Source of the DNA: Dehalococcoidia bacterium
Lineage (GTDB): Bacteria > Chloroflexota > Dehalococcoidia > UBA2979
DNA length: 64,000 nt
Direction of reading: 5' to 3'
NCBI GenBank assembly: GCA_965247895.1
Contig: OZ252046.1
Coordinates: forward strand, 3,319,155-3,383,154
Of this stretch, positions 3,366 to 64,000 are shown piece after piece. The translations under genes and the position numbers were made by a program. How positions within the stretch are numbered: the stretch's first letter is position 1; each line of letters opens with the position of its first letter. A model generated the notes under the pieces. It made no database searches. It saw only the letters and a list, made by a program, of their open reading frames with translations, and was not told the DNA's origin.

Positions 3366-3408
3366 GCGCCACGATGATCGCGGCCGTGGCCGGGACGCGA
3401 GCGGGGCG

Positions 3409-6626: not shown

Positions 6627-6692
6627 GAAGCGAGCACAGCGACGGGAGTCGCGAAAACCGCCGTTCGCCTGTGGGGGCAAGTTCGGCATCGT

Positions 6693-28684: not shown

Positions 28685-29512
28685 GTGGTGAGCAGCGAAC
28701 CGGTCATCCCGCGCGAACAACGGCCAGCGATCGCGAACTACCTCTCGCAGCGCCTCGCCGGACCCGTCTCGGTCGAGACCTGGACGCAGCGCGAATCCAG
28801 GCTCGTGCGCACGGACCGCGACCCCTGCATGTTCTGCGAACCGGTCACCAGCGCCGCGAGGCAGCTCGCCGCGCTGCACCCGCTGATCTCGCTCACGCCC
28901 TACGACATCGACAAGCACGCCGACCGCGCCGCCGAGGCCGGCATCGAGCGCCCGCCCGTGACCGTGCTGCGAGGCCGCAACGGCCGCGAGGTCCGCTTCA
29001 CGGGCCTCTGGTCCGGCCTGCTCTTCACGGCCTTCATGGACGCCGTGGTCTACGTCGGCGCGGGCGTCGCGCCGATCAACCCGGAGACGCGCGAGGCGCT
29101 GCAAGCGATCGAGGAAGAGCTGCGGCTCGAGCTGCTCGTCGCGCCCTACGACCCGTACTCGGCCTACACGCTGCGGGTCGCCGCGGCGTTCGCCGTCGAG
29201 GCGCGTCGCGTGCGCCTCGAGGTGATCGAGATCTCCGAGTTCCCGCGGCTGGCGCAGACGCGGATGGTCACCGAGGTCCCGGTGCTGCTGGTCAACGGTC
29301 GCCGCTTCACGGGCGCCTGGGACGAGAACGACCTGCTGGAGCAGTTGAAGCGCGTCGCCGCCAGCGACTCGGAGCCGGTGATCCGCGAGCGCATCCTCGT
29401 CTCGCCCTTCATGGACGTCGACCAGGCGCAGGCGTTCGCCGCCCGCGAGGCGCAGGGCGTCGCCCGCCAGCCGCCCACGACCCCGGGCGGCCTCATCATC
29501 CCCGGCCGCTAG
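28685..29512 (+). CDS. thioredoxin-fold protein with two TRX-like domains (CxxC only in the first)
   Basis: CMFC redox motif; second domain ...VPVLLVNGRRF... lacks cysteines. The last 5 codons lie in a 44-bp sequence repeated at 31526. Confidence 0.5.
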   Translation: MVSSEPVIPREQRPAIANYLSQRLAGPVSVETWTQRESRLVRTDRDPCMFCEPVTSAARQLAALHPLISLTPYDIDKHADRAAEAGIERPPVTVLRGRNGREVRFTGLWSGLLFTAFMDAVVYVGAGVAPINPETREALQAIEEELRLELLVAPYDPYSAYTLRVAAAFAVEARRVRLEVIEISEFPRLAQTRMVTEVPVLLVNGRRFTGAWDENDLLEQLKRVAASDSEPVIRERILVSPFMDVDQAQAFAAREAQGVARQPPTTPGGLIIPGR

Positions 29513-29541
29513 CCGGGGCGGCGAGCGATGTAGATCGCGAT
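29498..29541. repeat. 44-bp direct repeat, copy 1 (relic of the metalloprotease gene 3' end)
   Basis: catccccggccgctagccggggcggcgAgcgaTgtagatCgcg matches 31526..31569 with 3 mismatches. Contains a 7-bp stem hairpin CCCCGGC-cgcta-GCCGGGG. The minus strand encodes ...IAIYIARRPG*, like the metalloprotease C-terminus GGAIYVARRPG*. Confidence 0.6.
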
Positions 29542-31528
29542 CACGGAGTAGTGAGTTCGAACGTCCCGCAGTTGCTGGTGCTGATGCTGGACCACTCCGC
29601 TTGTACTTCGAAGGCGACTCGTCCGGGGCCTGATGCGACGCGGTGGCTGTTGTCGCGGTAGACGCGGCACAGGTTGCCGGTGTTGGTGGCGGCGTACGTG
29701 CCCGGAGCGAGTTCGGAGGGCACGAGGTAGACGCCGTCACCGAAGGAGGCGAGGCGGCTGGGAGTGTGGAGTTCGAACGTACCGCAGTCCCTGACGCGGA
29801 TGCTAGGCTACTCGGGCATTACCTCGAAGGTTATCCGTCCGGGCCCGGACGCCACGAGGCGGCTGTTCTCGCGGTAAACGCGGCATGAGTTGTCTGGGTC
29901 GGCGGCGCGGTACGTTCCCGGTGCGAGTTCGGAGGGCACGAGGTAGACGCCGTCACCGAAGGAGGCGAGGCGGCTGGGAGTGTGGAGTTCGAACGTACCG
30001 CAGTCCCTGACGCGGATGCTGGGCCACTCGGGCATTACCTCGAAGGTTATCCGTCCGGGTCCGGACGCCACGAGGCGGCTGTTCTCGCGGTAAACGCGGC
30101 ATGAGTTGTCTGAGTCGAGGGCGCGGTACGTTCCCGGTGCGAGTTCGGAGGGCACGAGGTAGACGCCGTCACCGAAGGAGGCGAGGCGGCTGGGAGTGTG
30201 GAGTTCGAACGTACCGCAGTCGCTGACGCGGATGCTGGGCCACTCGGGCATTACCTCGAAGGTAATCCGTCCGGGCCCGGACGCCACGAGGCGGCTGTTG
30301 TCGCCGTAAACGCGGCATGAGTTGTCCGTGTCGGTGGCGCGGTACGTTCCCGGCGCGATCTCGGAAGGCACGAGGTAGACGCCGTCACCGAAGGAGGCGA
30401 GGCGGCTCGGAGTGTGGAGTTCGAACGTTCCGCAGTCGCTGACGCGGATGCTGGGCCACTCGGGCACTACCTCGAAGGTTATCCGTCCGGGGCCTGATGC
30501 GACGAGGCGGCTGTTGTCGCCGTAGACGCGGCATGAGTTGTCCGTGTCGGTGGCGCGGTACGTTCCCGGCGCGATCTCGGAAGGCACGAGGTAGGTGCCG
30601 TCACCGAACGCTGCGGGAGCCGCAGCCGTTGGTGTGGGTGCGGGCGTCGCCGCCGCTGCGGATGTTGGCGTAGGAGTGGGCGCGGCCATCGCCGCCGTGG
30701 GCGTGAGCGTAGGTGTGTGCGCGTCGGCCCCCGCCGCCGTGGGCGTGGGCGTGGGCGGGGCCGTCGCTGCCGCTGCGGACGTTGACGTAGGAGCGGGCGC
30801 GGCCGTCGTCGCCGCCGCGGGCGTCGGCGTAGGTGTGTGCGCGTCGGCCCTCGACGCTGTGGGCGTCTCTGTCCTCGCCGCCACAGGCGTGGGCGTAGGT
30901 GAGGGGATGGCGACCCTCGCTGCAGCGGGCGTTGGCTTTGGTGTGGGTACAGACGGAGCCGCGCGTTGAGCGCGGGTTGGTGTTGCGGTTACGGCGTTCG
31001 AGCGGCTGAGAGTCGGCGCGGGAGTCGATCGGCGCAGGGGTGTCGTCGTTGCAGTGCGGGGCGCCACCGTGGCGCGCGCTGTGGCCGGTGGTGTTGAACT
31101 GTCGTCCGACTGCATTTGTCCGACGATGGCTCGACCGACAATGCCGACCGCGAGGACAGCGAGTAGCAGAGTCCACGGCCCGATCCTCGATCGTGAGCGG
31201 CTTGGTGGTGACTCAGGGCTGGCTTGTCGCGGCCTGCTCCGGGTGCCCTGCGTGCCGATCGCGGTTCAGATCCCGAGGTGCGGCCACCCGTATCAGCACG
31301 CGGCGTTCCGGCCCGCCACATGTCGTACGCGCGCCGCTGCTCTGCCCTCGACAGAGTCTCGAACGCGGCGTTGAGCCGTACCATGCGGGTGGCATCCGGC
31401 TCGGAGCTGCTGTCCGGGTGGTACTTGCGGGCGAGGCGACGGTAGGCGGCTTGAATGACCTCGGGCGAGGCGTTCGTGGAGACCTCAAGTTCCTCGTAGA
31501 GATCGAAGTCGGGAAAGCCCTCGCTCAT
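29541..31528 (-). pseudogene. disrupted gene: N-terminal J-domain, TM helix, Pro/Thr-rich linker, 5 x ~60-aa Cys-containing tandem repeat domains
   Basis: Frame 1 (ORF 30989..31528) carries a DnaJ J-domain DFDLYEELEV...YRRLARKYHPD, then garbage-like R-rich text. A different frame holds the TM helix IGPWTLLLAVLAVGIVGRAIVG, the PT linker and repeats (ORF 29808..31115), with no start codon before the TM helix. The last repeat is cut by TAG at 29808-29810, where the other repeats have TGG (Trp). ORF 29541..29723 is the remaining tail. Confidence 0.55.
29545..30600. repeat. ~180-bp near-identical tandem repeats (about 5.8 units) encoding the repeated extracytoplasmic domain
   Basis: Repeated peptide FGDGVYLVPSE(I/L)APGTYRA.D.DNSCRVY(G/R)(D/E)NSRLVASGPGRITFEVMPEWPSIRV(S/R)DCGTFELHTPSRLAS. 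Units differ by only a few nucleotides. Confidence 0.8.
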
Positions 31529-31569
31529 CCCCGGCCGCTAGCCGGGGCGGCGCGCGACGTAGATGGCGC
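31526..31569. repeat. 44-bp direct repeat, copy 2 (true 3' end of the metalloprotease gene, overlapping the J-domain gene start codon)
   Basis: Same sequence as 29498..29541 with 3 mismatches. Confidence 0.6.
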
Positions 31570-39513: not shown

Positions 39514-40763
39514 TGGCTCAGGCGCCGCGGCGAGTTGTGGTCACGGGCCTCGGGCTGCTCACGCCCCTGGGACTCGATGCCGAATCGACCTGGGACGGCC
39601 TGATCGAGGGCCGCTCCGGTATCGCCCCGATCACAGCCTTCGACACCTCCGCGTTCGAGTGTCCGATCGCCGGTGAGCTGCGCGGCTTCGACCCCGCCAA
39701 GCACGTCGATCCGAAGCTCGCGAGGCGCATCGACCGCTCCTCGGTGCTGGCGATCGCGGCCTCGAAGCAGGCCGTGCAGGACGCGCAGCTCGATCTGGAG
39801 CGGCAGCCTCCGGGCAGCGTCGGCATCGTGCTCGGGACGGGCATCGGTGGGGCGCACCTGCTGATCGAGAACCAGCAGCTGCTGGATCAGCGAGGGCCGC
39901 GCCGGGTCAGCCCCTTCATGATCACCAACTCGCTGCCGGACACCGCCTCCGGCCTCGTCGCGATCGCGCTCGGCGCGGGCGGGCCGAACATGGCCATCAC
40001 CGCCGCCTGCGCGACGGGCGGCGCGGCCGTCGGCGAGGCCGCGGAGATCATCCGCCGCGGCGCAGCCGACGTGATCCTCGCCGGCGGTTTCGAGGCCCCG
40101 TTGCATCCGATCTACTACGCCGGCTTCCAGGCGATGCGCGCCCTCGCCGTGCACGACGACCCGACGCAGGCCTCGCGACCCTTCGACGCCGATCGCAACG
40201 GCTTCGTGATCTCCGAGGGCGCCAGCGTGCTGATCCTCGAGGAGCTCGACCACGCGCTGGCGCGCGGCGCGCGCATCTACGCCGAGTGGGAGGGCGCGGC
40301 CACCGCCAGCGACGCCTTCGACATGGCCGCCGCCGCCGATGACGGGCGTGGCGTCGTGCGCGCAATGCAGCAGGTGTTCGCCGACAGCGAGGTGCCGCCG
40401 GGCGAGGTGGACTACCTCAACGCCCACGGCACGAGCACGCCGCTCAACGACCGCGTCGAGACCCGGGCGATCCGCACCGTCTTCGGCGAGGCTGCGGACC
40501 GCCTCGCGGTCTCCTCAACCAAGTCGATGCTCGGGCACATGATGGGCGCCGCGGGCGCGGTGGAGGCGGCGGTGGCGGTGCTCGCCTGCGATCGGCAGAT
40601 CGTGCCGCCCACGATCAACTATCGTACGCCCGACCCGGATTGCGACCTCGACTACGTGCCGAACGAGGCGCGTCCGATGGAGGTGCGGCACGCGCTGAGC
40701 ACCTCGGTTGGACTCGGGGGGCATAATTCGGTCCTGCTCTTCGGACGCTGGGAGGGTGTGTAA
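39513..40763 (+). CDS. fabF: 3-oxoacyl-ACP synthase II (KAS II), copy 1
   Basis: Active-site Cys (AACATGG) and His (NAHGTSTPLND, GHMMGAAG). Confidence 0.9.
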   Translation: MAQAPRRVVVTGLGLLTPLGLDAESTWDGLIEGRSGIAPITAFDTSAFECPIAGELRGFDPAKHVDPKLARRIDRSSVLAIAASKQAVQDAQLDLERQPPGSVGIVLGTGIGGAHLLIENQQLLDQRGPRRVSPFMITNSLPDTASGLVAIALGAGGPNMAITAACATGGAAVGEAAEIIRRGAADVILAGGFEAPLHPIYYAGFQAMRALAVHDDPTQASRPFDADRNGFVISEGASVLILEELDHALARGARIYAEWEGAATASDAFDMAAAADDGRGVVRAMQQVFADSEVPPGEVDYLNAHGTSTPLNDRVETRAIRTVFGEAADRLAVSSTKSMLGHMMGAAGAVEAAVAVLACDRQIVPPTINYRTPDPDCDLDYVPNEARPMEVRHALSTSVGLGGHNSVLLFGRWEGV

Positions 40764-42061
40764 TGGGCGGCCTCGATCCGAACGCGATGAGTACCCCCGC
40801 CGCCGGCGCGGCCCTGGCGGGGCAGCGCCGCATCGTCGTCACCGGCGTCGGCCTCGTCACCTCCGTCGGGATTGGCCGCGAGGCGACGTGGGACGCGCTG
40901 CTCGCGGGCGAGAACGGCATCGGGCCGGTCACGCTCTGCGAGTCCTCGGACCTCGGCTCGCGCATCGCCGGCGAGGCGCCGGACTTCGACCCGCTGAACT
41001 ACATCGACCGCAAGGCCGCGCGGCGCATGGACCGCTTCGTCCAGCTCTCGATCGCCGCGACACAGGACGCGCTCGAACAGTCGGAGCTCGACATCGCGCC
41101 GATCGCCGACGAGGTCGGGGCGATGATTGGCTCCGGCATGGGCGGCCTCACCTGGCTCGAGGATCAATTCAAGGTGATGTTCGAGAAGGGGCCGCACCGC
41201 GTCTCGCCCTTCCTCGTGCCGGCCTTCATCTCCGACATGGCCGCCGGCCAGGTCTCGATCCGCTTCGGCGCGCGCGGGCCGAACTTCAACACCGTCTCCG
41301 CCTGCGCCTCCGGCGCCGACGCGATCGGCACCGCGCTCGAGGTGATCCGCCGCGGGGACGCGCGCGCGATGATCACCGGCGGCAGCGACGCCTGCGTGAC
41401 GCGCATGGGCCTCGCCTCCTTCCACGCCTCGCGGGCGCTGTCCACGCAGCGCAACGACGACCCCGAGCACGCCTCGCGGCCGTTCGACATGGAGCGCGAC
41501 GGCTTCGTGCTGGCCGAGGGCGCGGGCACGCTGATCCTCGAGGAGCTCGAGTTCGCGAAGGCGCGCGGCGCCACGATCCTCGCCGAGGCCGTCTCCTACG
41601 GGCAGTCGGCCGACGCCTTCCACGTCACGCAGCCGTCCGCGAACGGCGAGGGCGCCGCGCGCGCGATGAAGATCGCGCTGCGCAAGGGCGGCGTCGCCGC
41701 GAGCGACGTCGGCTACATCAACGCGCACGGCACGAGCACGCCGCTCAACGACAAGTTCGAGACGATGTCGATCAAGGCCGTCTTCGGCGAGTCCGCGCTC
41801 GGCATCCCCATCTCCTCGACGAAGTCGATGCTCGGCCACACGCTCGGCGCGGCGGGCGGCATCGAGTCCGCCGTCACCGTGCTCTCGCTCCGCGACCAGC
41901 GGCTGCACATGACGCGCAACCTCGAAGTCCCCGACCCCGACTGCGACCTCGACTACATCGCCGAGGGCGCGCGCGACGTGGACATCGAGTACGCGATGAT
42001 GAACTCCCTGGGCTTCGGCGGTCACAACTCCTCCCTGATATTCCGGAGGTACCACGACTAA
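40763..42061 (+). CDS. 3-oxoacyl-ACP synthase II paralog, copy 2 (catalytic triad intact)
   Basis: Cys in VSACASG plus NAHGTSTPLND and GHTLGAAGG. Not a chain-length-factor type, since the Cys is retained. Confidence 0.9.
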   Translation: MGGLDPNAMSTPAAGAALAGQRRIVVTGVGLVTSVGIGREATWDALLAGENGIGPVTLCESSDLGSRIAGEAPDFDPLNYIDRKAARRMDRFVQLSIAATQDALEQSELDIAPIADEVGAMIGSGMGGLTWLEDQFKVMFEKGPHRVSPFLVPAFISDMAAGQVSIRFGARGPNFNTVSACASGADAIGTALEVIRRGDARAMITGGSDACVTRMGLASFHASRALSTQRNDDPEHASRPFDMERDGFVLAEGAGTLILEELEFAKARGATILAEAVSYGQSADAFHVTQPSANGEGAARAMKIALRKGGVAASDVGYINAHGTSTPLNDKFETMSIKAVFGESALGIPISSTKSMLGHTLGAAGGIESAVTVLSLRDQRLHMTRNLEVPDPDCDLDYIAEGARDVDIEYAMMNSLGFGGHNSSLIFRRYHD

Positions 42062-42077: not shown

Positions 42078-43772
42078 ATGGACGCGCGGCTGATCGAGGG
42101 CTCCGGTGGACGCCGCTGGCGCATTCGCGCCGCGCCCGACATCGGCGCATTCGAGGGCGCCGAATGGCCGCCGCTGATCTCCGCCCTGCTCGCGAACCGC
42201 GGCGTGCGCAGCCTCGACGAGGCGATCGCGTACCTCGGCGAGCCGGGGGAGCTGACTGACCCCGCGCTGATGCCGGACCTCGACATCGCCGTCGAGCGGC
42301 TGGAGCGGGCCTGCGCCGGGGCCGAGACGGTCGCGATCCTCGGCGACTTCGACGTCGACGGGCTGACCTCGACGGCGATCCTCAGCGAGGGCCTGCGCGA
42401 CCTCGGCGCGCATCCGCTGCCCTACATCCCGGACCGCTTCAGCGAGGGCTACGGCCCCAACCCGCAGGCCGTCCGCACGCTGCACGCGCAGGGCGCCAGC
42501 GTGCTGGTGACGGCGGACTGCGGCACCTCGGCGCTGCGCGAGGTGGAGCTGGCCAACGAGCTGGGCATGGACGTGATCGTGATCGACCATCACACCGTGC
42601 CGGACGAGCTCCCCGATGCGCTCGCGCTCGTGAACCCGAAGCTCGGCGGCTCGCAGTACGGATCCGAGCCCGCCGCCGTCGGCGTCGCGCACAAGGTCGT
42701 CGACCAGCTCTACGTGCGGGCGGGCCGCGACGGATCGCCCGAGGAGCACCGCGCGCTCGTCGCCCTCGGGACGATCTGCGACCTCGCGCCGATGCTGGGC
42801 GAGAACCGCGACCTGGTGCGCATCGGGCTGCGCGCGCTGGCGCGCTCGCGGCGTCCCGGCCTGCGTGCGCTGGCGGCGGTGGCGAAGGTCGTCCTCGCCG
42901 AGGCTGATCCCGACCTCTGCGGCTGGCAGCTCGGCCCTCGGATCAACGCCGCCGGGCGGATGGCGCACGCCAGCACGGCGCTCGAACTGCTGCTGACCGG
43001 CGACGAGGATGAGGCACAGCGCCTCGCGGCCGAACTGGACCGGCTCAACCTCGAGCGCCGCGAGGAGACGACGGCCGCCCTCGATCTGGCCGGCGAGCTG
43101 CTGACGCCCGGGGAGCTGGAAGCGCCGCTGCTGATCGTCGCGAGCGAGCAGTTCTCCTCGGGTATCGTCGGCCTCGTCGCCGGGCGGCTCGCGGAGGCGC
43201 ACCACCGGCCCGCGATCGCGCTCCAGATCGCCGAGGGGGAGTGCCGCGCCTCGTGCCGCTCGATCGACGCCTTCGACATCACGGCGCTGCTGCGCCGCCA
43301 CGCCGACCTCTTCCTGCGCTTCGGCGGCCACCGCGCCGCCGCCGGCTTCAGCATCGAGGCGCATCGATTGCCCGAGCTGCGCGAGCGCCTCGTCGCCGAC
43401 GCCGCCGAGCAGCTGACGCCCGCCGACCTCACGCCGACGATCGACATCGAGGCCGAACTACCGGTCGCCGCCGTCAACGGTGAGCTGCTGCGCCACCTCC
43501 AGCAGCTCGGCCCGCACGGCATCGGCAACCCGACGCCGCGCTTCCTCGCGAGGGCGGTGCGCATCCTCAACAGCCGCGTCGTGGGCAGCGACCGGTCGCA
43601 CCTCCAGTTCACGCTCAAGGAGGGCCGCGTCACCTGGCGCGCCATCGCCTTCGGCCTCGCGGAGCACGCGGTCCCCGACGGCGAGGCGGCGGACATCGTC
43701 TACACGTTCAGCAAGGACAACTTCCGCGGCACCCTCCAGCTCGAGGTGCTGGACCTGCGGGCGGCGGGGTAG
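42078..43772 (+). CDS. recJ: single-stranded-DNA-specific exonuclease RecJ
   Basis: DHH motifs (GDFDVDGLTS, VIDHH) and DHHA1 region. Confidence 0.85.
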   Translation: MDARLIEGSGGRRWRIRAAPDIGAFEGAEWPPLISALLANRGVRSLDEAIAYLGEPGELTDPALMPDLDIAVERLERACAGAETVAILGDFDVDGLTSTAILSEGLRDLGAHPLPYIPDRFSEGYGPNPQAVRTLHAQGASVLVTADCGTSALREVELANELGMDVIVIDHHTVPDELPDALALVNPKLGGSQYGSEPAAVGVAHKVVDQLYVRAGRDGSPEEHRALVALGTICDLAPMLGENRDLVRIGLRALARSRRPGLRALAAVAKVVLAEADPDLCGWQLGPRINAAGRMAHASTALELLLTGDEDEAQRLAAELDRLNLERREETTAALDLAGELLTPGELEAPLLIVASEQFSSGIVGLVAGRLAEAHHRPAIALQIAEGECRASCRSIDAFDITALLRRHADLFLRFGGHRAAAGFSIEAHRLPELRERLVADAAEQLTPADLTPTIDIEAELPVAAVNGELLRHLQQLGPHGIGNPTPRFLARAVRILNSRVVGSDRSHLQFTLKEGRVTWRAIAFGLAEHAVPDGEAADIVYTFSKDNFRGTLQLEVLDLRAAG

Positions 43773-43779
43773 GGGCCCG

Positions 43780-44058
43780 TCACGCGCGGGTGGGCTCTGC
43801 CTCCAGGCGGCTTGCGCAGCGGCGGGCCTCGGCGGCGAAGGTGTCCTCGTCCGCCGCCCCGCTCACGACGGTCTCTGCAATCAGGGCGAGGCGCTCGACC
43901 ATCTCCGCCTCAGCAGGACCGATCTCGCGGCTGTCCGTAACTGAGACTTCCCAGCCGCGAACCGCGTCAAGATCCATCTCGCCGGCGAGGTAGGCGTTCA
44001 AGGTGAGCAGAAGCTCGTTCTGGAGTAGCGTCAGAGGCATCAGAGGACTTCCCGCCAC
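43780..44058 (-). CDS. hypothetical small protein (92 aa)
   Basis: ORF with balanced, non-Arg-biased composition in an otherwise empty convergent gap. No family recognised. Confidence 0.35.
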   Translation of the reverse strand: MAGSPLMPLTLLQNELLLTLNAYLAGEMDLDAVRGWEVSVTDSREIGPAEAEMVERLALIAETVVSGAADEDTFAAEARRCASRLEAEPTRA

Positions 44059-44195
44059 GAACCGGTACCCTTGCCGCAGATCGTACTACCTGTCTACCAC
44101 GCCGCCACAGTCCCCAACGCCTGACCCCACCTGCCCTCGCGCGCCCGTGCGGTGTAACATCCCGCCACCACGTGCGCGCGGGGGGTGCCGACACG

Positions 44196-46247
44196 ATGAA
44201 CGCCTACACGTCCGAACAGCTTCGCAACGTCGTCCTGCTGGGGCACAGCGGGGCGGGGAAGACGATGCTGGGCGAGGCGATGCTCTTCGCCTCCGGCGTC
44301 ACCAACCGCCTCGGCCGCGTCGAGGACGGCAACACCGTCTCCGACTACGACGCCGAGGAGCACGCCCGCACCTACTCGATCTCGCTCTCCGTGCTGCCCG
44401 TCGAGTGGGCCGGGCAGCGCCTCAACATCATCGACACGCCGGGCTACGCCGACTTCATCGGCGAGGTCGTCAGCGGCCTCGCCGCCGCCGACTCCGCGCT
44501 CATCACCGTCGACGCCTCCAGCGGCATCGAGGCCGGCGCGGAGCTCGCCTGGGATCAGGCGGAGGCGCGCGGCCTGCCGCGCTTCATTGCCGTCACGCGC
44601 ATGGACCGCGAACACGCAAACTTCGAGCAGGTGCTCGACGAGGTGCGCGATCGCTTCGGCGTGAAGGTCGTCCCGCTGGCGATCCCGATCGGGTCCGCCG
44701 ACTCCTTCGAGGGCATCGTCCACCTCGCCAGCGGCGACGCGCGCATGGGCGCCGACGCGACGGCCGGCCCGGCTCCCGACGACCTCGCGGACGCCATCGA
44801 GGCCGCGCGCGAGCAGCTGATCGAGTCGATCGCCGAGACCGACGATGAGCTGCTCGAGCTCTACCTTGAGGGCGAGGATCTGCCGCCCGAGCGTGTCGCG
44901 GCGGTGCTGGCGGCGGCGGTCGCGGCCGGCGACGTGGTGCCGGTGCTGCCGGTCTGCGCCGTCAGCGGCGTCGGCGTGCGGACGCTGCTGAACGAGCTTG
45001 CGAGGCTGCTGCCCTCGCCGCTCGGCAGGGAGCACGAGCTGGCCGACGGCTCCTGCACCACGGACCCCTCGGGCCCGCTGGTGGTGCACGTCTTCAAGAC
45101 GGCCGCGGACCCCTTCGTCGGCAGGCTGACGTTCATGAAGGTGCTGAGCGGGGTGCTCACGCCCGATGCGAACCCTTACAACCCGGAGCGGCGTACCAAC
45201 GAGCGGCTGGGGCATCTCTTCATCCAGCGCGGCAAGGAGCAGATCGAGACGCCGCAGCTGGCCGCGGGCGACATCGGCGTGGCCGCCAAGCTCGCCGAGA
45301 CGATGACCGGCGACACGCTCCTCGGCAGCGACGCGCAGAACGAGCGCGTGCCGGCCCTCCCGTTCCCGGAGGCGACGTTCCGCTCCGCGCTCCACCCGAA
45401 GACGAAGGCCGACGTCGACAAACTCTCCTCGGCCCTCCAGCGGCTGGTCGAGCAGGATCCGACGCTCGCGGTCGTCCGAGACGCGAATACGAGCGAGACG
45501 GTGATGTCGACGATCGGCGACGCGCAGGCCAACATCACCGCCGCGCGCCTCGAGAAGAACTACGGCGTCGAGGTAGACGTGACGATCCCGGTGGTGGCCT
45601 ACCGCGAGACGGTCACGACCAAGGCAAAGGCCGAGTACAGGCACAAGAAGCAGACTGGCGGACACGGCCAGTACGGCCATGTCGTCATCGAGGTCGACGC
45701 GGCCGAGCGCGGTGCGGGGTTCACCTTCGAGCAGAAGGTCGTGGGCGGGAACGTGCCGAGGCAGTTCATCCCCGCGGTCGAGAAGGGCCTGATGGAGACG
45801 CTTCCGGATGGGCCGCTCGCGCACGCGCCGATCGTCGATGTACGCGTGACGCTGCTCGACGGCTCCTCGCACTCGGTGGACTCCTCGGAGATGGCGTTCA
45901 AGCTGGCCGCCGCGCAGGCGCTGAAGCAGGGCTTCCTCGACGCAGGGCCGATCCTGCTGGAGCCGATCGTGCGGCTCGTGGTGCGCGTCCCCGGCGACCG
46001 CGTCGGCGACGTGATGAGCGACCTCAACGGCCGTCGCGGCCAGGTCCACGGCGTGGACACCGAGGGCGACTACAGCGTGATCCAGGGCGAGGCCCCGCTC
46101 GCCGAGATCCAGCGCTACGGCCCCGACCTGCGCTCGATGACCAACGGCCGCGGCACCTTCACCGTCGCCGTCGACCGCTACGCCGAGGTGCCGGTGCACG
46201 TGCAGGAGCAGGTGCTGAAGGAGCTGCAGGCCGCCGCCGAGGCCTAG
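44196..46247 (+). CDS. elongation factor G paralog (EF-G2-like GTPase)
   Basis: GHSGAGKTML, DTPGYADF, plus EF-G domains II-V. Start at MNAYTSEQL (internal Met of ORF 44172..46247). Confidence 0.85.
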   Translation: MNAYTSEQLRNVVLLGHSGAGKTMLGEAMLFASGVTNRLGRVEDGNTVSDYDAEEHARTYSISLSVLPVEWAGQRLNIIDTPGYADFIGEVVSGLAAADSALITVDASSGIEAGAELAWDQAEARGLPRFIAVTRMDREHANFEQVLDEVRDRFGVKVVPLAIPIGSADSFEGIVHLASGDARMGADATAGPAPDDLADAIEAAREQLIESIAETDDELLELYLEGEDLPPERVAAVLAAAVAAGDVVPVLPVCAVSGVGVRTLLNELARLLPSPLGREHELADGSCTTDPSGPLVVHVFKTAADPFVGRLTFMKVLSGVLTPDANPYNPERRTNERLGHLFIQRGKEQIETPQLAAGDIGVAAKLAETMTGDTLLGSDAQNERVPALPFPEATFRSALHPKTKADVDKLSSALQRLVEQDPTLAVVRDANTSETVMSTIGDAQANITAARLEKNYGVEVDVTIPVVAYRETVTTKAKAEYRHKKQTGGHGQYGHVVIEVDAAERGAGFTFEQKVVGGNVPRQFIPAVEKGLMETLPDGPLAHAPIVDVRVTLLDGSSHSVDSSEMAFKLAAAQALKQGFLDAGPILLEPIVRLVVRVPGDRVGDVMSDLNGRRGQVHGVDTEGDYSVIQGEAPLAEIQRYGPDLRSMTNGRGTFTVAVDRYAEVPVHVQEQVLKELQAAAEA

Positions 46248-46253
46248 CCGCCC

Positions 46254-46334
46254 GACCCTTGGGCCGCCTCAGGCCGGCGCGGGGCCGAGTTCCGGGTTGC
46301 GCCAGATCGTCTCGTACTGGCGGCTGCGGATCGC
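46254..46334. repeat. 81-bp direct repeat, copy 1 (orphan duplicate of the 3' end of gene 46984..47442)
   Basis: cccttgggccgcctcaggccggcgcggggccgagttccgggttgcgccagatcgtctcgtactggcggCTgcggatcgcg is identical to 46971..47050 except 1 nt. The minus strand encodes ...AIRSRQYETIWRNPELGPAPA*. Confidence 0.7.
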
Positions 46335-46406
46335 GCCGGGGTTTCTGTATTGGGCGCCCGTAACCTGTGGCACGTATTCCGCACGGTTCCGGCGAGGAGG
46401 CTGGAG

Positions 46407-46964
46407 ATGACGACTGCGGGGACGAGGCTCCTGACTGCCGACGATCTCCTGCGGCTCCACGATGAGGGCGTCCGCGGTGAACTGATCCGGGGAGTGCTTT
46501 CCGAGACTCTGCCGGCTGGACATGCACACGGCAGAATCGTGATGAAGCTGGGCTTCGAGCTGATGAGCTTCGTCGAGCCGCGGCAGCTGGGAACACTTGT
46601 TGGCTCGGACGCCGGTGTCTGGCTGGAGCGTGACCCCGACACCGTGCGCGAGCCCGACTTTGCCCACACCTCGGCTGAGAAGATCCCGTTGGACGCGTGG
46701 ATTGATGGCTACGCCGAGGTGGCGCCGGACCTCGTGGTGGGGGTCGCTTCACCCAGCGACAGCCGGCGCGAGGTCAACGACAAGGCGCTGATGTGGCTGA
46801 GCTACGGCGTGCGCCTCGTATGGGTCGTACACCCGGATACACGGACGGTCGACATACACCGGGAGGGCCGCACGGTCTCGACGCTCGCCGGTGACGACGA
46901 TCTCGACGGCATGGATGTGCTTCCCGGGTTCACCTGCCCGGTGCGCGCCGTGTTCGGGGGGTAA
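46407..46964 (+). CDS. Uma2-family (DUF820) putative restriction-endonuclease-like protein
   Basis: MTTAGTRLLTADDLLRL...PDLVVGV...; GGAGG SD before ATG 46407 (internal Met of ORF 46350..46964). Confidence 0.75.
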   Translation: MTTAGTRLLTADDLLRLHDEGVRGELIRGVLSETLPAGHAHGRIVMKLGFELMSFVEPRQLGTLVGSDAGVWLERDPDTVREPDFAHTSAEKIPLDAWIDGYAEVAPDLVVGVASPSDSRREVNDKALMWLSYGVRLVWVVHPDTRTVDIHREGRTVSTLAGDDDLDGMDVLPGFTCPVRAVFGG

Positions 46965-46970
46965 GGCGAA

Positions 46971-47050
46971 CCCTTGGGCCGCCTCAGGCCGGCGCGGGGC
47001 CGAGTTCCGGGTTGCGCCAGATCGTCTCGTACTGGCGGCCGCGGATCGCG
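46971..47050. repeat. 81-bp direct repeat, copy 2 (functional 3' end of gene 46984..47442)
   Basis: See copy 1. Confidence 0.7.
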
Positions 47051-47442
47051 TTGCCGAGTTCCTGCTGCTCGAGGGCGTAGAGCTCCGCGAGACAGTCCCG
47101 GGCGCGCGCCAACTCGGCCTCGCCCCCTGTCGCGCCGAGGCGCGCGACCACGTGCTCCCAGACGCCGGCCTCCTCGAGCGCTCCGACGCGCCGCGTCCAG
47201 GGGATCAGCGTGATCGAGTCCGGGCGCGGGAGCCGGGGGCGCAGTCGCTTCAGCGACTCGAAGCGCTCCCTCGGGTTGCGCACCATCGGCACGACGCCGA
47301 TGTAGGGGCGGACGAACTTGCCGGATCGCGTGTCCAGCAGCAGCGTCCGGCGCAGCATCGGGAAGTAGATCGAGACGACCGAGGCCTCCTCGATGTTCTC
47401 GCAGATGCCCTCGATGTCGATTTCGAAGCCTCCGTCAAGCAT
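46984..47442 (-). CDS. hypothetical protein (152 aa) immediately downstream of tyrS
   Basis: ORF with an 8-nt overlap onto the tyrS start. Its C-terminus ...GRQYETIWRNPELGPAPA is duplicated at 46254..46334. Confidence 0.5.
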   Translation of the reverse strand: MLDGGFEIDIEGICENIEEASVVSIYFPMLRRTLLLDTRSGKFVRPYIGVVPMVRNPRERFESLKRLRPRLPRPDSITLIPWTRRVGALEEAGVWEHVVARLGATGGEAELARARDCLAELYALEQQELGNAIRGRQYETIWRNPELGPAPA

Positions 47443-48679
47443 CGCTTGCTCCTGACTCCTTCACTCCATCGGGGTTCGCGACCAGCCGCAGGAAGCGCCG
47501 GCGCCCCACGCGCAGCTCGTCGCCCGGGTGGACCGTGCAGTCGAACGCCGAGACCGGCTCGCCGTTGACGCGCACCGCGCCCTGCTCGACGAGCCGTCGC
47601 ACCTCGGCGCCGCTCTTCGCAAGTTCGGCGTCCACCAGCACGCGGTCGAGGCGTCCCGATGGCGCGAGCGCGCCGTCCGGCGCGAGCGCGTACACCGGCA
47701 TCTCGTCCGGAGTCTGGCGGCGCTGGAACGTCGACTCGAAGTAGTCGCGTGCGGCCTCGGCCGCGGCGGCATCGTGCAGCCCGGAGGTGATCTCGAAGGC
47801 GAGCCGCTTCTTTGCCTCCATCGGCGAGCCCGCGAGCAGCGCCGCGATCTCCACGCCCGAGAGGTCCGTGAGCAGCGTGAAGTAGTTGCGCAGCGAGGAG
47901 TCCGGGATCGACATCACCTTGCCGAACAGGTCGTTCGGCGGCTCGTCGATGCCGATGTGGTTGCCGAGCGACTTCGACATCTTCTCGTGGCCGTCGGTGC
48001 CGGCGAGGAGCGGCAGCGTGATCGCGATCTGCGGACGTTGGCCGTACTCGCGCTGGAGCTGGCGGCCGGCCATCAGGTTGAAGAGCTGGTCGCTGCCGCC
48101 GATCTGCACGTCGGTCTCCATCGCGACCGCGTCGTAGGCCTGCATCAGCGCGTAGAGGAACTCGCTGACGTGGATCGGGTCGTGGCGCTCGAAGCGGCGC
48201 GCGAGATTGTCGCGCTCCAGGAACTGCGCCACCGTGAAGTGCGAGGCGAGGCGCAGCACCTCGCCGAAGTTGAGCTTGCCGAGCCAGTCCGCGTTGCGCC
48301 GCACGATCGTGCGCTCCCGGTCCAGGATGCGGAACACCTGGTCCACGTAGGTGCGGCTGTTCGCCTCGATCTCCTCCGGGGAGAGCATCGGGCGGGTCTT
48401 GTTCTTGTCCGAGGGGTCGCTGACGAGGCTGGTGAAGTTGCCGATCAGGAACGTCACCTCGTGGCCGAAGTCCTGGAAGGTGCGCAGCTTGCGCATCGTC
48501 AGCGTGTGGCCGAGGTGCAGATCGACCGCCGTCGGGTCGTAGCCGCAGTAGACGCGCAGCGGACGGCCCTCGGCGAGCCGCTCGCGCAACTCGCGCTCCA
48601 TCGTGCGGCGCGTCGCCTCGTCCCCGAACTCCGCGCCGCGCATGATCGCGGCGAACTGCTGCTCGATCGTTGCGCTCAT
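47435..48679 (-). CDS. tyrS: tyrosyl-tRNA synthetase
   Basis: HIGH-type motif DLHLGH, KMSKSLGN, C-terminal S4 domain. Confidence 0.9.
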   Translation of the reverse strand: MSATIEQQFAAIMRGAEFGDEATRRTMERELRERLAEGRPLRVYCGYDPTAVDLHLGHTLTMRKLRTFQDFGHEVTFLIGNFTSLVSDPSDKNKTRPMLSPEEIEANSRTYVDQVFRILDRERTIVRRNADWLGKLNFGEVLRLASHFTVAQFLERDNLARRFERHDPIHVSEFLYALMQAYDAVAMETDVQIGGSDQLFNLMAGRQLQREYGQRPQIAITLPLLAGTDGHEKMSKSLGNHIGIDEPPNDLFGKVMSIPDSSLRNYFTLLTDLSGVEIAALLAGSPMEAKKRLAFEITSGLHDAAAAEAARDYFESTFQRRQTPDEMPVYALAPDGALAPSGRLDRVLVDAELAKSGAEVRRLVEQGAVRVNGEPVSAFDCTVHPGDELRVGRRRFLRLVANPDGVKESGASDA

Positions 48680-49697: not shown

Positions 49698-49766
49698 CTA
49701 TCCGTCGCCGGGTTCCTCCGTCACGGGCAGCGCGGGCTGCGGCGAGGCGCCCTCGATGCGCGCGAG
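49698..49766. repeat. ~69-bp direct repeat, copy 1 (orphan duplicate of the scpA 3' end)
   Basis: ctatccgtcgccgggttcctccgTcacgggcagcgcgggctgcggcgaggcgccctcgatgcgcgcgag matches 51114..51182 with 1 mismatch. The minus strand encodes ...[21 protein letters not shown]. Confidence 0.7.
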
Positions 49767-49779
49767 CGAGCGTCGCCTG

Positions 49780-50448
49780 CTATCCGTACCTATGGGCCAG
49801 GGCATAGGCCAGCCGGTCAGCCAGTGGGTGCTCATCGATCCTGCGCAGTTGGTCAACGAGTTCAGGCCGCGACTGCGGCAAAACGCCAGCATCGCTCAGG
49901 GCTGCGCGGGCGAGGTGCGTCAGCATCGAGACACTGAGTTCGGCGGCGGCGTCATGATCGCCGGCCGTCCGCATCTCGTCGTAGAGGCGTTGTGTCCTGT
50001 TCGCGCGCTCCCGTGCTTCGGTCGCCGACGGCAACACGAGTCGGTGGTTCCAGTTAGCCCGAAGTAGCGACCACCAGCCATTGCGCTCGAACAGCACCCG
50101 ACCGTAGCGCACCGTCCAGGAGAGGTAATCGTGACCGGCCTTGAGCTTTCGCGCGACGCCGGCCTGCTCGTACTGCCGCAGGTCTACATCGATCGGCGGC
50201 CGCGGCAGGCCGGGCCGACGTCCCCAGTACACCAGCACGATGTCGAGGTCGTCGCTGTGGTCGACGGCGCGGATGGCTGAGCCGGAGACGACGATCGCCT
50301 GAACCGCCAAGTTTCGGCTGGCGCCCGCCAGGGCGTCGAGCGTCCACGCTCGTGCGCCAGTGCTCGGCCACGACCGTACAGCAGTGAGCACGTCGCCCAG
50401 CGCTTGCGGTGGGCATGCTGACCGATCCGTCGTTTGCCGCTGCGTCAT
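49780..50448 (-). CDS. nucleotidyltransferase (Pol-beta superfamily) protein, possibly with a fused HEPN-like C-terminal half
   Basis: GS-x9-13-DxD nucleotidyltransferase motif (VVSGSAIRAVDHSDDLDIVLV). The C-terminal half contains RTAGDH, which fits the HEPN Rx4H pattern. Confidence 0.55.
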   Translation of the reverse strand: MTQRQTTDRSACPPQALGDVLTAVRSWPSTGARAWTLDALAGASRNLAVQAIVVSGSAIRAVDHSDDLDIVLVYWGRRPGLPRPPIDVDLRQYEQAGVARKLKAGHDYLSWTVRYGRVLFERNGWWSLLRANWNHRLVLPSATEARERANRTQRLYDEMRTAGDHDAAAELSVSMLTHLARAALSDAGVLPQSRPELVDQLRRIDEHPLADRLAYALAHRYG

Positions 50449-50636
50449 TCTGCGAGTAACGTTCCCACGGAGTCGACGTACTCCTCGATCGCGGCGGCAG
50501 TCTCCTCCGGACTCAGGTTCTCGGGGGGATAGATATCTCCGTATGCCTCGTGCTTGCGCGTCTCGTTCAGGTCGACAAGCAGGCCGTCTATGTATGGCAA
50601 GCCGTGCCCCTCGCTGAGGAGTTCGGCCATCTCCAC
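50445..50636 (-). CDS. small ORF (63 aa) translationally coupled upstream of the nucleotidyltransferase gene
   Basis: ATGA-type overlap with the downstream gene and acidic composition. Possible antitoxin or partner protein. Confidence 0.3.
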
Positions 50637-50666
50637 CTTGGCGTGGTGGGAGAGTGTAGCAGGGAA

Positions 50667-50701
50667 CCGTTGAGGCGCATGATGCCGATGCGCCTCAACG
50701 G
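50667..50701. promoter_or_regulatory. perfect 12-bp inverted repeat (CCGTTGAGGCGC-N11-GCGCCTCAACGG) just upstream of the small-ORF/NTase pair; candidate operator
   Basis: Seen directly in the sequence, about 30 nt upstream of the 50636 start codon on the minus strand. Confidence 0.35.
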
Positions 50702-51113
50702 TCGTCGCACTTCTGGGCAGGCCCCAGACTCACGGTCACCGTACCGAGGCCCCGTCATGCTCGCGTCGCCGATGACGCCGCCAGAAGTCTTCTGCGCTCG
50801 GACCAGATCGCTGCCCGGCGACTCGCGCCCGCCTGCGGCAGTGTCCGGCCCAGCATCGAATAGCAGGTGGTGGGTGGCGCGAGACGAGGCTATCGGGTCG
50901 GGTTGCTCGTGGCTGGCGACGCACACCTTGGCCTGCCCCCACAGGCGGTTGCTCGCTGAGGGCTTTTCGGACACCGAGACCGAGCGGCGTCTCGGTAGGA
51001 CGCGCCGGGCGTGCAGTCGCTTCAAGCTGCCGCGGGAGGTCGAAGAACTTGAGGCTCGCCCTGTTCGAACTCAGGGCGCCGGAGGTCGCTGCAGCGTTCG
51101 CTCGCAGCCCTCG

Positions 51114-51182
51114 CTATCCGTCGCCGGGTTCCTCCGCCACGGGCAGCGCGGGCTGCGGCGAGGCGCCCTCGATGCGCGCGAG
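51114..51182. repeat. ~69-bp direct repeat, copy 2 (true scpA 3' end)
   Basis: See copy 1 at 49698..49766. Confidence 0.7.
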
Positions 51183-63665: not shown

Positions 63666-64000
63666 ATGTCCTCAACGCTGAGACCACCATCCGACACCCA
63701 CGACGACCACGCCGGGCATGACCACGACGACCACGACGACCACGCCGGGCATGACCATGACGACCACGGCCACGACGACCACGACCACGAGGGCCACGAC
63801 CACAGCCAACACCATCACGCTCACGATCTGCGGGGCCTCAGCCGTCGCAGACTGAGCCTCAGCCTGCTGCTGATCGCCGGCTACATGCTGGCCGAGGTCA
63901 TCGGCGGCCTGATTTCAGGCAGCCTCGCGCTGCTGGCCGACGCCGGGCACATGGCCACGGACGCGGCCGCGATCGGCCTCGCGCTATTGGCGATGTGGTT
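63666..64000 (+). CDS. cation diffusion facilitator (CzcD/ZitB-like) transporter, N-terminal part; truncated by window end
   Basis: His/Asp-rich N-terminus ([35 protein letters not shown]), then TM region with the CDF signature [14 protein letters not shown]. No stop in window, so not in ORF track. Confidence 0.7.

What the first reader, a model, noticed from the sequence alone, without database searches (positions are those of the whole stretch)
46254..47050. Cassette 2: Uma2-family endonuclease gene inserted with an 81-bp duplication of the neighbouring gene's 3' end
The 81-bp copies (1 mismatch) both begin right after a stop codon. Copy 1 follows the EF-G2 stop and copy 2 follows the Uma2 stop. 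The simplest history is a 152-aa gene convergent on EF-G2, followed by cassette insertion. The orphan copy still encodes the last 21 residues plus stop of the host protein.
Basis: seen in the sequence. Interest (0 to 1): 0.55.

Follow-up and report, generated by a model that had tools for sequence, protein, structure and literature searches.

The report
Uma2 gene cassette with duplicated target
A single foreign nuclease gene has been slotted between two core genes of an uncultured Dehalococcoidia bacterium, flanked by two copies of the last 81 bases of the target site. Related strains show the intact empty site, and the pattern fits integration by ordinary homologous recombination rather than a transposase or integrase.

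Summary
There are two 81-nt copies (46255-46335 and 46970-47050) with one mismatch, found nowhere else in the window. Eight related Dehalococcoidia genomes have EF-G-like and the 152-aa gene convergent, about 21 nt apart, with one copy of the segment. Eight independent assemblies carry Uma2 plus the duplication.

The 634-bp insert holds only a Uma2-family PD-(D/E)XK gene and is compositionally foreign (GC3 0.81 against 0.91-0.96). It has no inverted ends, no transposase or integrase, and no tRNA.

The window holds two more cassettes built the same way, with 44-nt and 69-nt duplications. Both comparable sites are multi-allelic hotspots.

For the 69-nt cassette, the foreign DNA is the cargo, 20 nt of another strain's intergenic allele, and at most part of the right repeat copy. 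So the exchange was confined to the repeat.

Best reading, by analogy for Uma2: Campbell-type single-crossover or one-ended homologous integration of DNA carrying a short arm. Recombination between the repeats afterwards would give precise loss.

Four other Uma2 loci lack repeats, so Uma2 is cargo, not the agent. Moderately interesting; the mechanism is inferred, not proven.

The parts
44172..46247 (+). EF-G-like GTPase gene, left neighbour; its stop lies 7 nt before repeat copy 1
   Evidence: Pfam GTP_EFTU, EFG_III, EFG_IV and EFG_C. NCBIfam NF009381 at 847 bits; the EF-G2 equivalog is below its cut-off.
46255..46335 (.). Repeat copy 1, the orphan: 14 nt of native intergenic DNA plus a detached copy of the stop and last 21 codons of the 152-aa gene (46269-46335 on the minus strand)
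   Evidence: It carries the derived T at 46325. Between the window and L007 it diverges faster (7/81) than the functional copy (2/81) (sequences).
46336..46406 (+). Cassette 5' non-coding leader (71 nt) with a GGAGG ribosome-binding site. It is homologous to the leader in L007 and L016, and over about 50 nt in L017.
46407..46964 (+). Uma2-family (PF05685) PD-(D/E)XK nuclease gene, 185 aa. This copy has Gly at the otherwise invariant Glu112 of the PDLVVEV motif.
   Evidence: GC3 is 0.81 against 0.91-0.96 in neighbours.
46965..46969 (.). 5-nt spacer (GGCGA) between the Uma2 stop and repeat copy 2; right end of the insert
46970..47050 (.). Repeat copy 2, the functional copy, contiguous with the body of the 152-aa gene
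46984..47442 (-). Target gene: conserved 152-aa protein of unknown function. Its start overlaps the tyrS stop by 8 nt. The C-terminal motif NAIRGRQYETIWRNPE is invariant in 12 lineages.
   Evidence: no Pfam or NCBIfam family
47435..48679 (-). tyrS (tyrosine-tRNA ligase), upstream operon partner of the target gene
49698..51182 (.). Sister case, 'cassette 3'. 69-nt repeat at 49698-49766 and 51114-51182, which is the last 69 nt of scpA. The insert is 49767-51113 and carries a 222-aa and a 63-aa gene on the minus strand. Bases ~51092-51113 are a foreign allele of the scpA-proximal intergenic DNA.
29496..31568 (.). Sister case, 'cassette 1'. 44-nt repeat at 29496-29539 and 31525-31568 (93 %). It duplicates the CTAG-overlapping ends of a thioredoxin-like gene (+) and a Peptidase_MA_2 gene (-). 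The insert carries a DnaJ-domain gene and a 435-aa repeat protein.
   Evidence: No comparative data could be obtained.

Best explanation
Shown: a 634-bp, compositionally foreign, single-gene cassette has been inserted between the convergent ends of an EF-G-like gene and a tyrS-linked 152-aa core gene. The cargo is a Uma2-family PD-(D/E)XK nuclease, a candidate defence gene. The insertion comes with a duplication of 81 nt of the target (14 nt of spacer plus the last 67 nt of the 152-aa gene), so both host genes stay intact.

Inferred mechanism: the cassette entered on a small DNA molecule that already carried a short arm homologous to the 3' end of the 152-aa gene. Such a molecule could come from a relative in which Uma2 lies next to that gene, as in L017. 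It integrated by one homologous crossover through that arm, either Campbell-type integration of a circle or one-ended homologous repair with an illegitimate join on the other side. This automatically leaves the arm as a direct repeat on both sides of the cargo. No transposase or integrase is involved, only host recombination.

Once formed, the two copies can recombine (precise loss, restoring the empty site) or convert each other. That would explain the patchy distribution among close relatives and the host-specific alleles shared by both copies. Uma2 is cargo, not the agent.
For: Insertion and duplication: empty sites in 8 relatives and filled sites in 8 assemblies.

Foreign composition of all three repeat-flanked cassettes: GC3 0.71-0.81 against 0.91-0.96.

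No transposon or integrase hallmarks. There are no terminal inverted repeats or shared end motifs. There is no recombinase within +/-10 kb in the called genes of L001-L003. Repeat lengths vary: 44, 69, 81 and 102 nt, and about 11 nt in L008. Different inserts at the same hotspot join at different positions. There is no special fold (z +1.06), no Rfam family or credible tRNA, and no viral carrier.

Direct clue from the sister cassette 3. The 20 nt just left of its right repeat copy match the native intergenic allele of other strains (L006 18/20, L004 16/18; 0 of 1000 shuffles). The window's own allele sits beside the left copy and is identical to that of the 99 %-identical empty strain L001. 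Differences from L001 return to background (about 1 %) immediately right of the repeat, with 2 mismatches inside it. So the foreign tract is bounded by the repeat copies, as a single crossover through a 69-nt arm predicts.

Experimental precedent: single crossover of circular molecules carrying partial homology gave inserts flanked by 109-950-bp duplications in 56 of 60 E. coli clones (PMC3240628).

A donor-type arrangement exists: L017 has Uma2 with its own stop 27 nt from the stop of a 152-aa-gene homolog, without duplication.

Concerted alleles in both copies: G in the window clade and T in L007; 'TT' in both window copies and 'GC' in both L002 copies.

The distribution is patchy, with filled and empty sister lineages.
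Against: For the Uma2 cassette itself there is no significant donor-allele extension next to the right copy (670 of 2000 shuffles as good). The mechanism is therefore carried over from cassette 3 by analogy.

In L016 the duplication (102 nt, significant at 2/2000) runs through the EF-G stop, and Uma2 there uses the duplicated EF-G stop. A simple donor of the L017 type does not explain this.

The window and L016 cassettes share the same core limits but differ at both junctions. Uma2 dS (0.72) is far above the flanks (0.21-0.28). So one old event cannot be told apart from repeated events.

The cassette-3 evidence could also come from a double crossover with both exchanges inside pre-existing repeats. 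That would leave the first origin of the duplication unexplained.

A 44-nt arm (cassette 1) is short for RecA-type recombination (my knowledge of minimal processing segments, not tested).

No circular form, no donor for the window clade and no recombination genes could be examined.
Confidence: 0.45

Rival explanations
1. True target-site duplication from a staggered double-strand break. Two nicks 40-100 nt apart are filled in and a captured DNA fragment is ligated between the ends. The agent could be end-joining, or a transposase acting in trans that makes long, variable duplications like IS1549/IS1634.
For: Both copies are nearly identical and of host type in every genome. Repeat lengths vary. 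IS1549/IS1634 are documented to make 8-514-bp duplications with no known mechanism (PMC2266710). A DDE transposase sits in the neighbouring hotspot in L015. This model would explain the very first origin of a duplication without needing a donor that already carries the arm.
Against: The cassettes have no terminal inverted repeats or shared ends. The cassettes contain no transposase. In cassette 3 the sequence next to the right copy is a foreign allele of the target locus, which a fill-in of recipient DNA cannot give. Whether the lineage has Ku/LigD is unknown.
Confidence: 0.22
2. Site-specific integration by a tyrosine integrase whose attachment site overlaps the 3' end of the 152-aa gene, as phage 21 and e14 do at icd. 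The Uma2 cassette would be a satellite mobilised in trans, or the last remnant of a larger element.
For: Duplication of a target gene's 3' end that keeps the gene intact is the classical signature (my knowledge of phage 21/e14-icd). Uma2 paralogs are cargo of elements with relaxase and serine recombinases (L019-L024) and of a Rad52/McrB-type island. The same cassette core occurs at the same site in lineages 14 % apart.
Against: No integrase in the cassette or within +/-10 kb. Three cassettes use three unrelated targets and repeats. Other inserts at the same hotspots join at other positions, so there is no common core. No viral or mobile contig carries the arm. No tRNA is involved.
Confidence: 0.1
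3. Replication-based template switching (microhomology-mediated break-induced replication). A broken fork copies about 630 nt from a foreign or ectopic template and switches back 81 nt upstream of the break, giving an insertion plus a flanking duplication.
For: It produces an insertion flanked by a variable duplication without any mobile-element features. The native Uma2 3' end (TTCGGCCCATAG in L018) and the EF-G 3' end (GCCGAGGCCTGA) share a loose 10-nt resemblance at the L016 junction.
Against: No donor sequence is available, so junction microhomology cannot be measured. The test is uninformative by construction. It does not explain the foreign allele next to cassette 3's right copy. The template would have to be foreign DNA present in the cell.
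Confidence: 0.1
4. The Uma2 nuclease mobilises its own gene, like a homing endonuclease, by cutting the 152-aa gene's conserved 3' end.
For: Uma2 lies next to the 152-aa gene in three lineages (window clade, L016, L017). The family is huge and densely paralogous, with 6848 hits at E<1e-20. It has a PD-(D/E)XK nuclease fold.
Against: Four independent Uma2 loci (P0005, P0006, P0037, P0021) and L017 have no flanking repeats. Two cassettes with the same architecture carry no Uma2. The duplication preserves every sub-sequence of the empty site, so insertion gives no immunity to cutting. The window copy has lost the invariant Glu112.
Confidence: 0.05

Closest known systems
Campbell-type single-crossover integration of a circle carrying partial homology (seen among E. 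coli conjugation recombinants, PMC3240628) and homology-facilitated illegitimate recombination
   Same: Foreign DNA ends up flanked by a direct duplication of the chromosomal segment that served as the homology arm. The duplication length is variable. No dedicated recombinase is needed. In cassette 3 the foreign tract is bounded by the repeat copies.
   Different: Those are laboratory events with arms of 109-950 bp, on plasmids. Here the arms are 44-102 nt, the products are natural single- or two-gene cassettes fixed in wild populations, and no circle or donor has been observed. Classical HFIR usually deletes recipient DNA rather than duplicating it (PMC3240628 introduction).
Neisseria 'minimal mobile elements' (Saunders & Snyder 2002; used in PMC1797815)
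   Same: Small gene cassettes without mobility genes sit between conserved flanking genes, with alternative cassettes at the same site in different strains. Restriction-modification or defence-type cargo is common. Here there are at least 4 states at EF-G|152-aa and at least 5 at ribF|scpA.
   Different: Minimal mobile elements are thought to move by double crossover in the flanking genes and are not defined by duplicated target ends. Natural transformation is not known for this lineage.
Prophage integration into the 3' end of a protein gene with a substitute 3' end (phage 21 / e14 at icd; my knowledge)
   Same: The 3' end of the target gene is present twice, so the gene stays functional and an orphan copy lies on the far side of the insert.
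   Different: Those elements encode their own integrase and use one fixed core. Here there is no integrase, three different targets, and variable junctions.
IS1549 / IS1634 insertion sequences (PMC2266710)
   Same: Long direct repeats of variable length (8-514 bp) flank the insert.
   Different: Those are autonomous DDE-transposase elements with defined ends. The cassettes here have neither.
Transposed non-transposon genes flanked by 30-433-bp repeats of the target site in Arabidopsis and Drosophila (PMC2869330)
   Same: Ordinary genes are flanked by long direct repeats that match the single-copy orthologous target site. A circle-excision and homologous re-insertion model was proposed there too.
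   Different: Those are eukaryotic, intragenomic moves. Here the setting is bacterial and the event is probably between strains.

Membership tests
Uma2 family (Pfam PF05685, PD-(D/E)XK fold) | Full-length match to the family profile above the gathering score | tested here: met
   E 1.7e-30, 106.2 bits against 27, profile positions 2-171 of 172. PDB relatives 9y1l, 6okh, 1wdj and 3ot2.
Uma2 family (Pfam PF05685, PD-(D/E)XK fold) | Conserved acidic residue of the PDLVVEV strand (Glu112), presumed catalytic | tested here: not met
   The window copy has Gly. All 20 other aligned homologs have Glu, including sister strains L001 and P0001. The gene family assignment stands, but this copy may be inactive.
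DDE transposon / insertion sequence (including non-autonomous derivatives) | Terminal inverted repeats or conserved ends, a transposase, and a target duplication of characteristic length | tested here: not met
   TIR scores are at the shuffle mean for all three cassettes, with no shared ends. The only ORF is Uma2. Duplications are 44, 69, 81 and 102 nt.
Integrase-mediated integrative element (attL/attR at a gene 3' end) | Duplication of the target gene's 3' end flanking the element | tested here: met
Integrase-mediated integrative element (attL/attR at a gene 3' end) | Integrase in or near the element, and one fixed crossover core used by inserts at that site | tested here: not met
   No recombinase among the called genes within +/-10 kb. 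L005, L009 and the window join at different positions. No viral contig carries the arm.
Integron gene cassette | attC-type imperfect palindrome at the cassette end and an intI/attI platform | tested here: not met
   The repeat is simply the host gene's 3' end, single-copy in empty sites. Its fold is no better than shuffles (z +1.06). No integrase nearby. No dedicated attC model was run.
Single-crossover (Campbell-type) or one-ended homologous integration product | The flanking repeat equals a contiguous segment of the intact target locus | tested here: met
   Empty sites in 8 relatives contain the segment once.
Single-crossover (Campbell-type) or one-ended homologous integration product | One repeat copy, with adjoining bases, is donor-derived, and the foreign tract ends within the repeat | tested here: inconclusive
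   Met for sister cassette 3. For the Uma2 cassette the adjoining 24 nt show no significant foreign-allele match.
Single-crossover (Campbell-type) or one-ended homologous integration product | Existence of a circular or linear intermediate carrying cargo plus one arm; dependence on host recombination | not testable with these tools
   This needs raw reads or experiments.
Minimal-mobile-element-type hotspot | Conserved flanking genes with alternative cassettes in different strains and no mobility genes | tested here: met
   States at EF-G|152-aa: empty; Uma2; MTase-HNH plus Uma2 (L017); a 285-aa ORF (L009); another gene (L005). States at ribF|scpA: empty; cassette 3; a 765-bp insert; an epimerase-like gene with an ~11-nt repeat; a 3.3-kb insert that does hold a DDE transposase (L015)..
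PADLOC candidate defence system PDC-S03 | Similarity to the candidate-system protein models | tested here: met
   PDLC04833 E 1.6e-14; PDLC04832 E 6.4e-12. This is similarity only; no function was tested.

The most novel reading that the evidence does not exclude
In this Dehalococcoidia lineage, small accessory or defence cassettes may travel as integrase-free units. Each would carry a 40-100-nt copy of a core gene's 3' end as a portable homology arm. Host recombination would insert them by a single crossover and excise them again through the resulting repeats. This would be a reversible 'homology-arm cassette' system operating at many operon boundaries (three cases and three hotspots in this one window).
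Probability: 0.25. Interest if true: 0.65.

Novelty: new variant of a known kind. Interest (0 to 1): 0.4.

Why it matters
Most horizontally acquired genes in bacteria sit in hotspots that lack any recognisable mobile-element machinery, and how they get there is mostly inferred. This locus gives a clean natural example with the empty site, several filled states and alternative occupants all available.

For a sister cassette in the same window there is sequence evidence that the duplicated target end came in with the donor DNA, and that the exchange was confined to that short repeat. If this is general, short duplicated gene ends would mark recombination-driven, reversible gene gain. They could then be used to find young acquisitions and their donors in metagenome-assembled genomes.

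It also warns annotators that such orphan 3' gene ends are scars, not genes. It shows that Uma2 genes, although hugely expanded, behave here as cargo.

Tried and rejected
- Dispersed-repeat idea: rejected. There are 2 copies only, and relatives have a single copy.
- Assembly artefact: rejected. Eight independent assemblies show the structure.
- Terminator, promoter or structured RNA in the repeat: none found.
- Terminal inverted repeats or common ends of the three cassettes: none. The junction-microhomology count in that call is meaningless, because repeat limits are defined by the first mismatch.
- Imported divergent tract beside the Uma2 cassette: not seen. The 152-aa gene's middle is variable in all pairs.
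- My impression that the window's right junction (GGGGGGTAAGGCGA) is a diverged EF-G end: not significant. An earlier version of that test used a bad anchor and was discarded.
- Relation between the 151-aa gene upstream of Uma2 paralog P0037 and the 152-aa target: none.
- tRNA-SeC call by ARAGORN inside cassette 3: not supported by Rfam even at E<=10 and not called in L025.
- Two metagenome scans for the 152-aa protein (single sequence and alignment): no relatives.
- Viral scans: nothing.
- Exact-protein look-ups for Uma2, the thioredoxin-like gene, the 222-aa gene and the DnaJ gene: not on record. Cassette 1 therefore has no comparative support.
- Donor-type arrangement for cassette 3: not found. 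L025 has the same event.

Full report
**Observation.** The window contains an 81-nt direct repeat at 46255-46335 and 46970-47050, with a start-to-start distance of 715 nt and one mismatch. A search allowing three mismatches finds only these two copies, and none is expected by chance.

The genes around it are as follows:
- recJ, 42078-43772 (+)
- a 92-aa ORF
- an EF-G-like gene, 44172-46247 (+)
- a 185-aa Uma2-family gene, 46407-46964 (+); PF05685, E 1.7e-30
- a 152-aa gene without family, 46984-47442 (-)
- tyrS, 47435-48679 (-)

Copy 1 starts 7 nt after the EF-G-like stop. Copy 2 starts 5 nt after the Uma2 stop. Copy 2 is the real end of the 152-aa gene: 14 nt of spacer, the stop and 21 codons. 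Copy 1 is a detached duplicate that still reads AIRSRQYETIWRNPELGPAPA*.

**Is it an insertion?** Yes. Exact-protein look-up and a scan of species-representative genomes place the window in a high-GC Dehalococcoidia (Chloroflexota) lineage known only from metagenomes.

In L006, L008 and L010-L015 the EF-G-like stop is followed by a short spacer (22 nt in L006, up to about 40 nt in others) and then the stop of the convergent 152-aa gene. They have one copy of the segment and no Uma2. The L006 site is almost base for base the predicted ancestral state.

Filled sites with the repeat occur in L001-L004, L025 (97-99 % identical strains from several samples) and L007 (95 %). L016, a lineage about 14 % diverged, has a homologous filled site.

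The single mismatch is a derived T in the orphan copy. The cassette is compositionally foreign, with Uma2 GC3 0.81 against 0.91-0.96 for all neighbours.

**Anatomy of the insert.** The 634 bp comprise a 71-nt leader with a GGAGG site, the Uma2 ORF and 5 nt. The insert has:
- no terminal inverted repeats
- no other ORF
- no promoter or terminator consensus
- no fold better than shuffles
- no Rfam family
- no recombinase within 10 kb in the called genes of sister contigs

**The pattern is not unique.** The same window has two more high-identity, locus-specific repeats.

One is 69 nt, at 49698-49766 and 51114-51182, and equals the last 69 nt of scpA. It flanks a 1347-bp insert with a 222-aa and a 63-aa gene.

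The other is 44 nt, at 29496-29539 and 31525-31568. It duplicates the CTAG-overlapping ends of two convergent genes. It flanks a DnaJ-domain gene and a 435-aa repeat protein.

All cargo genes have low GC3 (0.71-0.78). In the 44-nt case the duplication is what allows both overlapping host genes to survive.

**Hotspots.** The EF-G|152-aa junction has at least five states:
- empty
- Uma2
- MTase-HNH plus Uma2 without repeat (L017)
- a 285-aa ORF (L009)
- a different gene in a 97.7 %-identical strain (L005)

The ribF|scpA junction is empty in eight loci. Elsewhere it holds cassette 3, a 765-bp low-GC insert, an epimerase-like gene with an ~11-nt repeat, or 3.3 kb with a DDE transposase. The recJ|EF-G spacer varies from 112 to 2401 nt. 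Junction positions differ between inserts, so there is no common attachment core.

**Mechanistic clue from cassette 3.** The 20 nt immediately left of its right-hand repeat copy (CAGCGTTCGCTCGCAGCCCT) match the native scpA-proximal intergenic allele of other strains: L006 18/20 and L004 16/18, with 0 of 1000 shuffles reaching this. The window's own allele lies next to the left copy. It is identical to that of L001, a 99 %-identical strain whose site is empty.

Differences between the window and L001 fall back to the background of about 1 % immediately to the right of the repeat, with two mismatches inside it. The foreign DNA is therefore the cargo, 20 nt of donor spacer and at most part of the right repeat copy. 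The exchange was confined to the repeat.

That is what a single crossover between the chromosome and a molecule carrying cargo plus a short homologous arm produces. A staggered cut filled in from recipient DNA would not produce it.

The same outcome is documented experimentally. Single crossovers of circles with partial homology gave inserts flanked by 109-950-bp duplications in 56 of 60 E. coli clones (PMC3240628).

There is a caveat. A double crossover with both exchanges inside pre-existing repeats would look the same and would push the origin of the duplication back to the donor.

**The Uma2 cassette itself.** The same test is not significant for the window clade, so the mechanism is inferred by analogy. 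Several observations fit it:
- Both copies share host-specific alleles (G in the window clade, T in L007; TT in both window copies, GC in both L002 copies). This points to gene conversion or repeated recombination between copies.
- The distribution on flank trees is patchy. L016 (filled) is sister to L011 (empty), and the window clade (filled) is sister to L015 (empty). Precise repeat-mediated loss would give this.
- L017 shows a donor-type arrangement: Uma2 with its native stop 27 nt from the stop of a 152-aa-gene homolog, with no duplication.

Two things remain unexplained. In L016 the duplication is 102 nt and runs through the EF-G stop (significant, 2/2000), so Uma2 there ends with EF-G's last codons. 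Also, Uma2 dS between the window and L016 is 0.72 against 0.21-0.28 for EF-G, the 152-aa gene and tyrS, although ribF reaches 0.52 and codon bias differs. The two cassettes share the same core limits but differ at both junctions. I cannot decide between one old event with conversion and at least four losses, and two or three events.

**Is Uma2 the agent?** Probably not:
- Four independent Uma2 loci (P0005, P0006 in an element with relaxase and serine recombinases, P0037 beside Rad52/McrB-like genes, P0021) and L017 have no flanking repeats.
- Two cassettes of the same architecture lack Uma2.
- The duplication preserves every sub-sequence of the empty site, so it gives no protection from a site-specific cut.
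- The window's copy has Gly at the invariant Glu112, plus two further changes next to the EPD motif, and dN exceeds dS against sister strains.

The family is very large, with 6848 hits at E<1e-20. It resembles PADLOC candidate PDC-S03.

**Comparison with known systems.** The closest matches are Campbell-type single-crossover or homology-facilitated integration for the mechanism, and Neisseria minimal mobile elements for the hotspot behaviour (PMC1797815).

Integrase elements that duplicate a gene's 3' end (phage 21/e14 at icd, from my knowledge) share the signature but not the machinery. IS1549/IS1634 make long variable repeats but are autonomous elements (PMC2266710). Plant and fly genes flanked by 30-433-bp repeats of the target site are a eukaryotic parallel (PMC2869330).

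**Verdict.** The structure is an integrase-free, repeat-flanked single-gene cassette at a multi-allelic hotspot. It is one of three in the window. It most likely arose by homologous single-crossover integration; this is moderately supported, and only by analogy for this cassette. I rate it a new natural variant of a known kind, of moderate interest.

Noticed in passing
window 49698-51182: A second repeat-flanked cassette. The 69-nt duplication is the scpA 3' end. The cargo is a 222-aa gene (GSxxx...DLDIVLV nucleotidyltransferase-like motif, no Pfam) and a 63-aa gene, possibly a toxin-antitoxin pair. The site is empty in L001, L004, L006 and L010-L014. The 20 nt left of the right copy are a foreign allele of the target spacer.
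   Followed up: yes
window 29496-31568: A third repeat-flanked cassette. The 44-nt duplication (3 mismatches) covers the CTAG-overlapping ends of a thioredoxin-like gene and a Peptidase_MA_2 gene. The cargo is a DnaJ-domain protein, whose ATG lies inside the right repeat copy, and a 435-aa protein with five 72-aa Rv1352/Rv1906c-type repeats (216-nt tandem DNA repeats at 29545-30708).
   Followed up: partly
window 46740-46742 (codon 112 of Uma2): The window's Uma2 has Gly where all 20 aligned homologs, including 97-98 % identical sister strains, have the Glu of the PDLVVEV strand. It also has L85F and Y87H beside the EPD motif. dN (0.012) exceeds dS (0.007) against L001/L002. This copy may be decaying.
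   Followed up: partly
L004 ~3374-4048: In strain L004 one extra C before the Uma2 stop (GGGGGGCTAGGG) shifts the frame. The called gene is 224 aa and reads into the repeat and the 152-aa gene's end.
   Followed up: no
window 43772-44172 and the same spacer in L001-L015: The recJ|EF-G spacer holds a 92-aa ORF without family in the window. It is a third variable spot, with spacer length from 112 nt (L011) to 2401 nt (L015) among relatives.
   Followed up: partly
window 50990-51085: ARAGORN calls a 96-nt tRNA-SeC (anticodon TCA) inside cassette 3, 28 nt from the right repeat. Rfam finds no tRNA there even at E<=10, and the 94 %-identical ortholog in L025 is not called. It is probably a false positive.
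   Followed up: yes
window 50657-50735 (minus strand): A near-perfect ~16-bp GC-rich hairpin (AACCGTTGAGGCGCATGATGCCGATGCGCCTCAACGGT) lies just upstream of the 63-aa gene of cassette 3. It gives only a weak chance match to the Rfam gyrA RNA (14 bits).
   Followed up: no
window 46984-47442 and alignment A1: The 152-aa target protein has no Pfam or NCBIfam family. Its start overlaps the tyrS stop by 8 nt. It has an invariant C-terminal motif NAIRGRQYETIWRNPE in 12 lineages, while residues ~100-112 vary in every pair.
   Followed up: partly
L017 1334-2611: In a more distant lineage a fused N6_N4 methyltransferase-HNH gene sits between EF-G and Uma2, so the hotspot can hold two defence-type genes in series.
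   Followed up: no
L019-L024 and L026-L029: Uma2 paralogs 73-78 % identical to the window's are cargo of mobile or defence neighbourhoods. One is next to a Replic_Relax protein and one or two large serine recombinases whose arrangement differs between contigs. Another is between a Rad52_Rad22 gene and a McrB-like AAA gene.
   Followed up: no
window 6685-7721: A long array of 72-nt tandem repeats (12 or more units at 62-75 % identity), probably coding for a leucine-rich-repeat-type protein on the minus strand.
   Followed up: no
window 40153-41884: Two adjacent ketoacyl-synthase (fabF-like) paralogs are 72-78 % identical over parts of their length. They account for the 35-nt 'repeat' seen in several loci.
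   Followed up: no
window 63689-63814: A short-period (9/15-nt) CCACGACGA-type repeat tract at the window's end, likely coding for a His/Asp-rich low-complexity segment.
   Followed up: no
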